Shown: one piece after another, positions 9,601-12,600 of the stretch
Numbering within the stretch: position 1 is the stretch's first letter
Layout of the letters: each line of letters starts with the position of its first letter
Source: Laetmonice hystrix
Taxonomy: Eukaryota
Direction of reading: 5' to 3'
Length of the DNA: 64,000 nucleotides
Assembly (NCBI GenBank): GCA_965235115.1
Contig: OZ249436.1
Coordinates: 8,062,001-8,126,000, forward strand
Made by a program: the position numbers and the translations under genes
Notes under the pieces: model-generated
The model's input: the letters and a program-made list of their open reading frames with translations, nothing else
Databases searched by the model: none
Told to the model about the DNA's origin: nothing

Positions 9601-12600
9601 CAGGTCGTCTGTTTTCTTAAACCCACATAATTTAAAATCTTAGTTGAAGCTTCAAAGACTATTTAAACAGCATTTATGCTTGATAAGGTACAAAGTTGTT
9701 TTTATGGATACAGTATTGCTGGCTGAGCTGTATTATTTCTAGCTGTAAATATTGACTTAATGAGTTCGACTTTTCCAGGAGTGACCGATTTGACAGGCAG
9801 TTCACCCCTTCCATCTTTCCCTCATACTTGTGTCTTTAAATGATTTGTACTCAAATTCTTACTTTATCGACAGATCAGAGATTGAGATGCTCTCAGTAGG
9901 ACAAAGAAATAATTGTTGTTGACAAACGTTGATATGTCTTAATCTTAACACACTTGGCTATTGAACAAACTCACGCTTATTAACTTATCACACATAATGG
10001 CCAGTGCTTACCGAGGAAATATAATAGCGGCCTCAAAACATATCAGAGAAAGAAAACACTAAATTCTCAACTTGATTCTAAAACAGACAGTTTGAGCTGA
10101 TTTAAATGTTTTCCCTGTAAAGACCAAGCATGTAGATGTTTTCGTGGACTGCGTTCTCTGCCTCCCCCCCCCATGTGTATGTGTAGAGTTTTTGTAAGTA
10201 GAAAACACGATCAGAGCACGCTTACGGGACCCCTAGTCGGTGACACCGTGACCTTTGACCTCAATCACGTGACCCCCTTTAACACATGCGCACATCCTCA
10301 CTGGAGTCCGACCTCCCGCCCGACCCGTCTGAGGGTGTCCCAAACCTAGAGGCTTTAGGCTGCATGATGTGTAGGAGGCATTGTGCTGTCACCTGTTGTT
10401 TCTCTTCGGAACTACAAGTTGGTCTGATATAAAAGGCATATATAAGGTACAGAGATGTAAAGGAACTGTCAATCTACTATCAACCTTTTAAATTAAAGTC
10501 CGCTACGTTTTAAAAGTAACCATGAAAACCTTACGTTTAATCTTTTATTAATTAATGGAAATAAACAGAAACATTGAGGTTTTGATTGTAACAAATGCAT
10601 GTCGAATGCATGCGACTGAAACCTTAAGGAGGCAAGAGGAGTTTTCATTACGAACCGTGCAATTCCCTTTCACACACCCGCAAGGTATCACAGCTTCTAC
10701 GGCATTCTGAATAAACATCATTAATTCTTCTAAAGATATTTACCTGATGAATTTCACATTCAATTAAATTATTATAAAACTTTCATTGCACTTCCTCAAA
10801 ATTCCAACATATCGACAATAATGATTAGTTTAAAACTGTAGACCGAATAGTGAATTCTCAAAGTTCACCAGTTAGCGCTATATTTGGAGAGTGTTGCCGA
10901 GGCATGGCCACAGTCCAAGGCCCCAGTCAAGGCCACGGTTAGAAGGCTGTGAGTGCCGGTTTGGGTGTGTCTGTCCGTCAGCAGAGGACCCGAGCAGCTG
11001 GAGATAGCTTACACTGATGGAGGTTCTATCTGGTTGTCTTTCAGCCACGCGACAACTACATTCGGTCAGTCAAACTGGCGACCGAGGGCACTACCCTGGT
11101 GGTCGGTGGTGAAGCCAGTTTCCTCTGTATCTGGGACCTTGCCGCTGTAAGTGCTGTCGGTCTCTTACATTGCGTGTTGTTCCTTTATCCACTTGGGTTT
11201 GTTTATCTGCTTGTTTTCAGCAACGTGACAACTATATTCGTTCCATAAAACTGCTGCACGATGGCCGCACTTTGATCGTAGGCGGGGAGGCCAGTACGCT
11301 GTCCATTTGGGACCTGGCAGCTGTGAGTGGCCGCTTTTTCCTTGTTCTAGTCAGCTAAGTGACCTCTCCATGCTCTTTTGCGACCTGTTTGACCTTGACT
11401 CGACTTCCTGCATGAGCGCCCCCTGGTGGATCTCCACTTCCTGTGCGGTGTTGTCGGACCGCGGCGCGCTGGTCGCATGACGTCGGGACCGACACCGTGT
11501 ACAGTCACCAGACTTGATAAACTCCTGACTGACGTCTGTCATTGCTAACTCCCATCTCTCCGTTTCTGTTTCCCGTTGCCTGGTTTATTATTATTTTGTG
11601 TTGCCCTGGCTGCCAGTCGGCCGGGCGGGGTGGGAACGAGGGCTGTCAGAGTGGTAAACGATTACCTGGTAACCTGGCAGGGTTATAGAAACCGTTGATG
11701 CCGGATGTAGAGTTGTAGTGTCGGGGGGGGGGGGGGTGAGTCCGGGTCTCTCATTACCCGTCACCTCGTCTCCTGGCGGGACTCACGACACATCTTTACC
11801 TTCTGTATATATTGATAAAACTATGAGTATCAACTGTTTTCAACCGGGAACAAAAGATATCAACAGGGTAACGTTTAATGAAGTCTCTAATGTTGGCACC
11901 TATAGGCCTACTCTTTAAATGCATGAATAACTTGTCGATCTAATTAAAATTGTAGAATAGTATGGTAGTTATTCTACGTATGTAATACTTGGTAGTTAGG
12001 AGGTCAGCTCAATAATACAATCTTTACAGTATTGTTTTGTTTATACCAGTTAAATGACATTACTGTAACTCTCAACTTATATCGATACATAGAGCCAAAT
12101 ATTGACCAAGAACCTTGCTGTACAATATTTGTAAGGGTTTGTGTCAATAATAAGTAGAGTAGACCTCATACTATATGATATGGCCTGTTTGAGGTGTTTG
12201 TGAACGGGAGGACAGACTTGTCACCGGTTACGTTTGTTTGTGTACTCACCAGCCGACCCCCCGTATTAAAGCCGAGTTGACGTCGAGTGCACCAGCATGC
12301 TACGCCTTGGCCATCAGCCCCGACTCCAAAGTGTGCTTCTCCTGCTGCTCTGATGGCAACATAGCGGTCTGGGACCTGCACAACCAGACCCTCGTCAGGT
12401 CAGACAAACTCTTCTTAAACCTTAAACTTATCATGGGAGACCATTGGGCTGTCGCAGTTTGTAATATTGTCAGGACAATAGTTATTCCTATGAATTTCAA
12501 AATTTGAGTTATTAAACCATTGGTCTGACCAGTGGTTTGGGCTCTATCTGTAGCCGTCACAAGATACAGAATGAAGTATTTATAGACTGGAAGAAGATTT

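What the first reader, a model, noticed from the sequence alone, without database searches (positions are those of the whole stretch)
11045..11322. Tandemly duplicated, probably mutually exclusive exon pair in the Groucho WD40 peptide-binding domain
Seen: two homologous 102-nt phase-0 exons, each with intact AG/GT sites, separated by only 74 nt. Nine of 34 aa differ, and 14 of the 25 codons for identical aa carry synonymous changes, with no stops or indels. This points to an old duplication with both copies under purifying selection. The 74-nt intron has no internal AG after the donor and a branch-like CTTAC only ~20 nt from the donor. Known: a donor-to-branchpoint distance under about 50 nt sterically blocks joining of two exons (alpha-tropomyosin mechanism). 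This segment carries the YIR and GGE residues (TLE1 R534 and E550, from memory) that line the pore binding WRPW/eh1 motifs, and both exons keep them. Inference: including both exons would add part of a blade and disrupt the propeller, so the gene probably makes two isoforms with swapped blade surfaces (LATEGT/FLC versus LLHDGR/TLS). I do not know of such a switch in this highly conserved domain.
Basis: partly seen in the sequence, partly recalled or inferred. Interest (0 to 1): 0.8.

Follow-up and report, generated by a model that had tools for sequence, protein, structure and literature searches.

The report
Alternative exon pair in annelid Groucho
A worm's single groucho co-repressor gene keeps two old, interchangeable copies of one exon in its highly conserved binding domain, so it probably makes two protein forms that share the motif-binding pore but differ on the outer surface.

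Summary
The pair is old: 5 of 5 related DNA loci carry A then B, and A and B copies split on one 100/99 branch. A is under purifying selection (pN/pS at most 0.18). Named carriers are annelids (Capitella, Paralvinella). B is the canonical exon; A has residues absent from 354 canonical segments (P528, A539, E541, F553; TLE1 numbering). An intron-free A-only ORF shows A is spliced in and folds like TLE1. That lineage (Capitella-like) appears to have lost B, so it does not prove switching. No species is shown with both isoforms and no RNA run was available, so exclusivity is inferred (about 0.8). The steric mechanism is only partly supported: two relatives have 323-354-nt introns and a 55-nt intron is removed in the Capitella-like record. 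Pore residues Y532, R534 and E550 are unchanged. Differences lie in the bottom turn and on strand c, beside the strand that binds the ubiquitin ligase FBXL14 in human TLE1 (inferred, untested). Not found in print; the scan earlier noted a different, Q-domain groucho exon pair in arthropods.

The parts
5344..5524 (+). groucho/TLE coding exon, start of the WD40 domain
   Evidence: AG/GT ends and open frame; match to P0126 residues 458-522
8755..8823 (+). constitutive exon upstream of the pair (69 nt, ends in phase 0)
11045..11146 (+). exon A: derived copy, strands a-c of the second WD40 blade (TLE1 528-561)
   Evidence: conserved in L003-L007, P0003-P0009, P0123, P0126; strands
11147..11220 (+). 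74-nt intron between A and B; branch-like sites begin at positions 18, 38 and 56; its last ~20 nt (acceptor of B) are conserved in relatives
11221..11322 (+). exon B: canonical copy, unusually conserved at synonymous sites in the short-intron group
12253..12398 (+). constitutive exon downstream of the pair; encodes strand d with R565, E569, T571
12859..12970 (+). constitutive WD40 exon
15505..15587 (+). constitutive WD40 exon
17940..18120 (+). constitutive WD40 exon
18727..18834 (+). last coding exon with stop codon

Best explanation
The single groucho/TLE gene of a lophotrochozoan, most likely an annelid, carries an ancient tandem duplicate of the exon for strands a-c of WD40 blade 2. Each mRNA takes A or B (inferred), giving two equal-length co-repressors with the same WRPW/eh1 pore residues (shown at sequence level) but different outer surfaces: P528 on the top rim, A539/E541/T543 in the bottom turn, F553/C555 on strand c. 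B is the canonical, probably default exon and A the derived one (shown by comparison). The choice is most likely made by competition between the two acceptors under sequence elements in and around B, helped in most species by a very short A-B intron (inferred). My committed guess for function, about 0.3 on its own, is that the switch tunes partners docking on the side of blades 2-3, such as SCF-FBXL14, and not which repressor motif is bound.
For: A then B in 5 of 5 loci and in P0003, P0004, P0123, P0278. A and B copies separate on a 100/99 branch. Exon A: pN 0.013-0.135 against pS 0.48-0.92 in 14 of 15 pairs, the 15th being near-identical. Intron-free ORFs hold exactly one copy: A in P0126 (784 aa on a 2,938-nt contig), B in P0134, P0052, P0047, P0082. 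The A form folds with pLDDT 93-95 over the exon and matches TLE1 at TM 0.97. B has 1 of 33 synonymous changes between L003 and L007 against 15 of 33 in A and 15 of 22 in the upstream exon; window against L007: B 9 of 32, constitutive exons 133 of 279, p = 0.04. 8 of 10 measured or implied A-B introns are 60-90 nt. Strand c (553-558) pairs with strand d (565-571); R565 and R610 are FBXL14-interface residues in human TLE1 (PMC13308096); the genome has an FBXL14 ortholog.
Against: No junction reads, and no species with both isoforms in transcripts. The only A-only spliced records are Capitella-like, where B seems absent, so they do not show switching; the B-only ORFs are not tied to genomes shown to hold A. 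The Paralvinella model P0123 joins A and B in frame, and A+B keeps the frame here too. B's synonymous conservation does not extend to L004 and L005 (pS 0.52-0.88). The FBXL14 link rests on strand adjacency and general WD40 register, not on coordinates. C555 also occurs in 12 of 354 canonical segments.
Confidence: 0.8

Rival explanations
1. One reading: exclusion is enforced only by steric interference between A's donor and a nearby branch point (alpha-tropomyosin/OGDH type). This is a rival for the mechanism, not for exclusivity.
For: Window intron AG-free with branch-like adenosines at 21 and 41; the only such site in L003 and L006 puts the adenosine at 41 and 45, under the ~50-nt threshold (threshold from PMC5740500 and PMC7969005 passages); 8 of 10 introns are 60-90 nt.
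Against: L004 and L005 introns are 354 and 323 nt with 11 and 14 AGs and 3'-located branch-like sites; L007 has no branch-like match; 5 of 5 relatives have internal AGs; a 55-nt intron after A is removed in the Capitella-like lineage; the window has a third site with its adenosine at 59.
Confidence: 0.3
2. The switch changes motif specificity at the pore (WRPW against eh1), through P528 next to Y532 and second-shell changes.
For: The exon carries Y532 and R534; P528 is fixed in A (8 of 8 complete A segments) and absent from 354 canonical segments.
Against: Y532, R534 and E550 are identical in all A and B copies; a Capitella-like lineage appears to run on A alone, which suggests A binds the usual motifs.
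Confidence: 0.15
3. In this species exon A is rarely or never used (a relic or very minor cassette) and B is in effect constitutive.
For: No expression data for this genome; B has the conserved acceptor and the extra nucleotide constraint.
Against: Window A keeps both splice sites and differs from relatives mostly at synonymous sites (pN 0.046-0.124, pS 0.54-0.92); its synonymous rate equals that of constitutive exons (13 of 28 against 133 of 279).
Confidence: 0.1
4. Both exons are routinely included, as for the duplicated COE exon of vertebrates (PMC2394523, abstract seen).
For: Frame is kept; the Paralvinella gene model joins them.
Against: 0 of the intron-free, transcript-like ORFs listed hold both; inclusion adds three strands with no d strand to a closed propeller (strands; consequence inferred); both copies keep all core and pore residues, as expected if each fills the same slot.
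Confidence: 0.05

Closest known systems
Homologous mutually exclusive exons from tandem exon duplication (Hatje et al. 2017, PMC5740500; catalogue in PMC8373072; coq-2 in annelids and molluscs, PMC7434440)
   Same: Adjacent equal-length, same-frame, homologous exons for one structural segment, both conserved; one copy like the ancestral exon and one derived, as for coq-2.
   Different: Junction evidence is missing here. No TLE gene was found in the searched supplements of the two human catalogues (one file of PMC5740500 not searched). One lineage seems to have kept only the derived copy.
Human TLE1 WD40 domain (PDB 1gxr, 2ce8, 2ce9) and other Groucho/TLE proteins
   Same: Same fold (TM 0.97 for the A form of a relative) and the same pore residues Y532, R534, E550.
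   Different: A-type residues P528, A539, E541, F553 occur in 0 of 354 canonical segments; no exon pair at this place was seen outside the annelid-like records.
Arthropod groucho Q-domain exon pair (earlier scan notes e1-7496049, e1-7513160; unchecked AI notes)
   Same: A duplicated, apparently alternative exon in groucho.
   Different: Different exon and domain; the Q-domain exons between G000:C1 8,021,000 and 8,040,700 are single here.
Steric-interference exon pairs (alpha-tropomyosin, recalled; OGDH 4a/4b, PMC7969005 passages)
   Same: Short intervening intron with branch-like sites under 50 nt from the upstream donor in the window, L003 and L006.
   Different: No long AG-free tract in relatives; two relatives have long introns; branch points are not mapped.

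Membership tests
Groucho/TLE co-repressors | N-terminal Q (TLE_N) domain in the same gene | tested here: met
   P0126 has PF03920 at E 1e-64; its residues 8-40, 39-75 and 97-124 match exons upstream of the window on the same strand of C1
Groucho/TLE co-repressors | C-terminal WD40 propeller like TLE1 | tested here: met
   Window exons give 326 aa, 286-292 identical to a bird TLE1; model of the relative's A form matches 2ce8/1gxr at TM 0.97
Groucho/TLE co-repressors | Pore residues for WRPW/eh1 binding within this exon (Y532, R534; E550 recalled) | tested here: met
   Kept in both exons and in all A-type copies; binding itself not tested
Homologous mutually exclusive exons | Neighbouring exons of like length, same frame, homologous sequence, intact splice sites | tested here: met
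Homologous mutually exclusive exons | Both copies conserved and under purifying selection | tested here: met
Homologous mutually exclusive exons | In one species, junctions from each exon that bypass the other | tested here: inconclusive
   A-only and B-only intron-free ORFs come from different records; the A-only lineage seems to lack B
Homologous mutually exclusive exons | No reads joining the two exons | not testable with these tools
   No RNA run of this organism was listed
Steric-interference exon pairs | Branch point under ~50 nt from the upstream donor | tested here: inconclusive
   Motif scan only: adenosines at 21, 41, 59 (window), 41 (L003), 45 (L006), none (L007), 52 and beyond (L004), 94 and beyond (L005)
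Steric-interference exon pairs | AG-free stretch from branch point to acceptor, kept in relatives | tested here: not met
   Met in the window only; 5 of 5 relatives have internal AGs
RNA-structure (docking/selector) exon pairs | Conserved, covarying pairing around the exons | tested here: not met
   z 0.51 and 1.19; covariation term +1.73; 1 of 39 pairs with a two-sided change. Only the local region was tested; long-range pairing was not
Frameshift/NMD-enforced exon pairs | Double inclusion shifts the frame | tested here: not met
   102 nt each; A+B stays open

The most novel reading that the evidence does not exclude
Annelids evolved a splice switch that leaves Groucho's repressor-motif pore intact but rebuilds the strand beside the SCF-FBXL14 docking patch (T553F, S555C against T571, E569), so that exon choice sets whether bound WRPW/eh1 repressors are presented for degradation; and the Capitella lineage discarded the canonical bilaterian exon and runs on the derived one alone.
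Probability: 0.2. Interest if true: 0.8.

Novelty: new member of a known kind. Interest (0 to 1): 0.56.

Why it matters
The Groucho WD40 domain is the shared landing site for Hes, Runx and eh1-bearing repressors and barely changes across animals: several positions of this exon are invariant in 354 of 354 canonical segments. A conserved alternative version of one blade, from a single-copy gene, offers isoform-level control of a core developmental co-repressor in annelids. It is invisible in the two named gene models seen (one shows A only, one fuses both). If the Capitella lineage has truly lost B, an established model worm is a natural exon-swap mutant. Both points can be tested with existing annelid RNA-seq and genomes.

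Tried and rejected
Local RNA structure: not supported. Rbfox-type and YCAY-cluster motifs near the pair: positions not shared, none in L007 for the former; no conserved block downstream of B beyond about 25 nt or upstream of A. Double hits in Ephemera and Diaphorina (P0124, P0125) are long repeated stretches with two identical canonical segments, not an exon pair. A weak second match near a Q-domain exon is chance: stops in frame, no acceptor. A conserved read-through of the A-B intron: rejected, lengths are out of frame in 3 of 6 loci. An apparent loss of two glutamates in P0278's exon A is explained by TGA read as Trp in a shifted frame. The strand-a motif of blade 1 that I first took as an annelid marker is also in a flatworm (P0309), so it is not one. 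A single-sequence fold of P0126 was poor (mean pLDDT 41.5) and was not used. Rfam: 0 matches in the window. A Fisher test printed for L003 against L007 used hand-entered denominators that differ slightly from the counts, so only the counts are quoted.

Full report
Observation. Nine exons from 5344 to 18834 have AG/GT ends; with A or with B they give an open 326-residue frame, with both 360, with neither 292. The genome (627 Mb, 35 contigs) has two matches to exon A, namely A and B, and one groucho gene, on C1 from 8,018,537 to 8,080,831. B matches TLE1 chain 1gxr_A 96-128 better than A does (47.8 against 39.0 bits). TLE1 numbering is used below (exon = 528-561); it assumes the chain ends at residue 770 (recalled) and agrees with Tyr532 in PMC3419727 and R534 in PMC13308096.

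Organism. Not named by any search. The own-genome FBXL14 falls in a lophotrochozoan clade (99/95) outside the mollusc clade (94/90), unresolved against Owenia. The only named records with exon A are Capitella teleta and Paralvinella palmiformis, both Sedentaria. An annelid is the inference.

The pair is old and conserved. A scan of metagenome contigs with an A-type alignment gave 92 pattern matches and 5 confirmed loci; 5 of 5 hold A followed by B. L003 and L006 are near-identical, and L004 encodes the same two peptides as the Paralvinella model, so these are about four lineages. Genomic read-through ORFs P0003 and P0004 show A, 20 or 22 intron codons, then B. P0278 holds a whole A exon in a shifted frame (33 of 33 positions; next best 9 among 344 proteins examined), with an implied 65-nt intron; P0260 is only suggestive (7 positions, 68 nt). 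In a tree of the 12 exon copies, A and B separate at 100/99: one duplication before these species split. For A, pN is 0.013-0.135 and pS 0.48-0.92 in 14 of 15 pairs; pS is near saturation, so the ratio (at most 0.18) is an upper bound.

A is the derived copy. Of 372 stored proteins, 360 hold the segment; 11 were scored A-like, of which one (P0352) is a divergent Groucho and not A-type, leaving 10. A-type copies share P528, A539, E541, T543, F553 and C555. Among 354 canonical segments P528, A539, E541, T543 and F553 occur 0 times and C555 12 times. Y532 is invariant, R534 is kept in 352 and E550 in 353 of 354, and all three are kept in every A copy. Limit: these are the best-listed hits of searches with 278, 3,745 and 314 matches, and clustering at 90% can hide A isoforms behind B representatives, as it did for P0123. 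Absence from molluscs or brachiopods is therefore not shown.

Is A used? P0126 is a 784-residue intron-free ORF on a 2,938-nt Logan contig with A joined to both neighbours and no B, which points to a spliced mRNA. The Capitella gene model P0009 also has A only. Intron-free B-only ORFs are P0134, P0052, P0047 and P0082. Against a simple reading: P0008, identical to the two Capitella-like proteins over 72 of 72 upstream residues, runs from A into an intron whose tail matches the next constitutive exon in a shifted frame (8 of 8 positions to the stop; 1 of 523 control tails reached 5 or more), implying a 55-nt intron and no B. So that lineage has probably lost B; B lying upstream of A there is not excluded. 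P0126 then shows that A makes a full-length Groucho, and perhaps the only one in that animal, but not that a switch operates. No species is seen with both isoforms. The Paralvinella model joins A and B, which I read as a prediction artefact across a long intron, without proof. Exclusivity is thus inferred from two conserved copies of one structural slot: about 0.8.

Mechanism of choice. A-B introns are 60, 65, 66, 68 (suggestive), 74, 75, 86, 90, 323 and 354 nt. A donor-to-branch distance under about 50 nt is the stated steric threshold (passages of PMC5740500 and PMC7969005). Branch-like adenosines lie at 21, 41 and 59 in the window, 41 in L003, 45 in L006, nowhere in L007, and from 52 and 94 onward in L004 and L005; all 5 relatives have internal AGs. 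With a 55-nt intron removed in the Capitella-like lineage, shortness alone does not forbid splicing in these animals. Steric help is possible in the short-intron group but cannot be the general rule. Frameshift enforcement is excluded and local RNA structure is unsupported. What is conserved is B itself and its acceptor: 1 of 33 synonymous changes between L003 and L007, against 15 of 33 in A and 15 of 22 in the upstream exon; window against L007 9 of 32, against 133 of 279 in constitutive exons (p = 0.04) and 13 of 28 in A. The last ~20 intron bases before B are alike in the window and L003, L004, L006, L007. This constraint is not seen against L004 and L005 (pS 0.52-0.88). I infer splicing-regulatory sequence in and around B and acceptor competition; no factor is identified.

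What differs in the protein. An alignment-based model of the A form has pLDDT 93-95 over the exon and matches TLE1 at TM 0.97; the alignment was mostly canonical sequences, so this shows compatibility, not a difference. Strands are a 532-539, b 544-549, c 553-558 and d 565-571. The A-specific residues fall in the loop before strand a (528), the a-b turn (539-543) and strand c (553, 555), not at the pore residues. A 2026 preprint (PMC13308096; section 6 read whole, other passages by search, supplements not seen) reports that SCF-FBXL14 cradles the TLE1 WD40 domain while the motif pore stays free, names R565 and R610 as interface residues and lists E569A, T571A and F612A among its TLE1 mutants; that these three are interface mutants is my reading of the reagent list and a legend. 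These residues are present in the window's downstream exons, and the genome encodes an FBXL14 ortholog. By the usual WD40 hairpin register (own knowledge) 553 faces 571 and 555 faces 569. T553F and S555C would then sit in that patch. This is an inference without coordinates, about 0.3; a bottom-face partner, a stability effect or a small change at the pore are not excluded.

Comparison with what is known. It works like, and by sequence criteria belongs with, homologous mutually exclusive exons; the junction criteria of Hatje et al. (passages) are untested. coq-2 is a precedent in annelids for an ancestral-like and a derived exon (passages). COE shows that a duplicated exon can become constitutive (abstract). 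Searches for this pair in print found nothing that describes it, judged from listings and abstract starts: groucho + mutually exclusive exon, groucho + alternative splicing + WD40 + isoform + WRPW + exon, annelid + mutually exclusive exons/tandem exon duplication, groucho + Capitella + isoform, groucho + Platynereis + splice variant, and a six-term search. No TLE gene was found in the searched supplements of two human catalogues. Subscription journals are largely outside this library. PMC4943189 was seen as passages and added no residue inside this exon.

Verdict. A real, old, apparently undescribed exon pair in the most conserved domain of Groucho, probably mutually exclusive, with a likely loss of the canonical copy in a Capitella-like lineage. 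The kind of system is well known; the gene, the domain and the apparent replacement are what is new. Interest 0.56.

Noticed in passing
P0008 (with P0009, P0126): A Capitella-like record has exon A followed after an implied 55-nt intron by the next constitutive exon, with no exon B: likely loss of the canonical exon.
   Followed up: partly
window 22971-44271: Tandem array of about 24 copies of an 840-bp unit (96-100% identical), some with a ~200-bp insertion, holding 18-bp subrepeats, downstream of the groucho gene.
   Followed up: partly
window about 46700-56000, minus strand: Exon-like open frames of a second gene, one with a weak C2-domain match (E 0.002); it resembles CEP120 from recall, not tested.
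   Followed up: partly
L024:460-1659 (-) = G000:C13 near 18,906,000: Intron-free FBXL14 / partner-of-paired ortholog of 400 residues.
   Followed up: yes
P0123 (Paralvinella palmiformis model): The public gene model joins both exons, and the Capitella model shows only A, so neither annotation reveals the pair.
   Followed up: partly
window 3225-3447, 4664-4866, 6275-6975, 15145-15426, 18176-18686: Intronic minisatellites of 28, 68, 64, 48 and 45 bp period within the groucho gene.
   Followed up: no
P0124, P0125: Insect Groucho models (Ephemera, Diaphorina) with long internal repeats of the WD40 start that look like assembly or annotation duplicates.
   Followed up: partly
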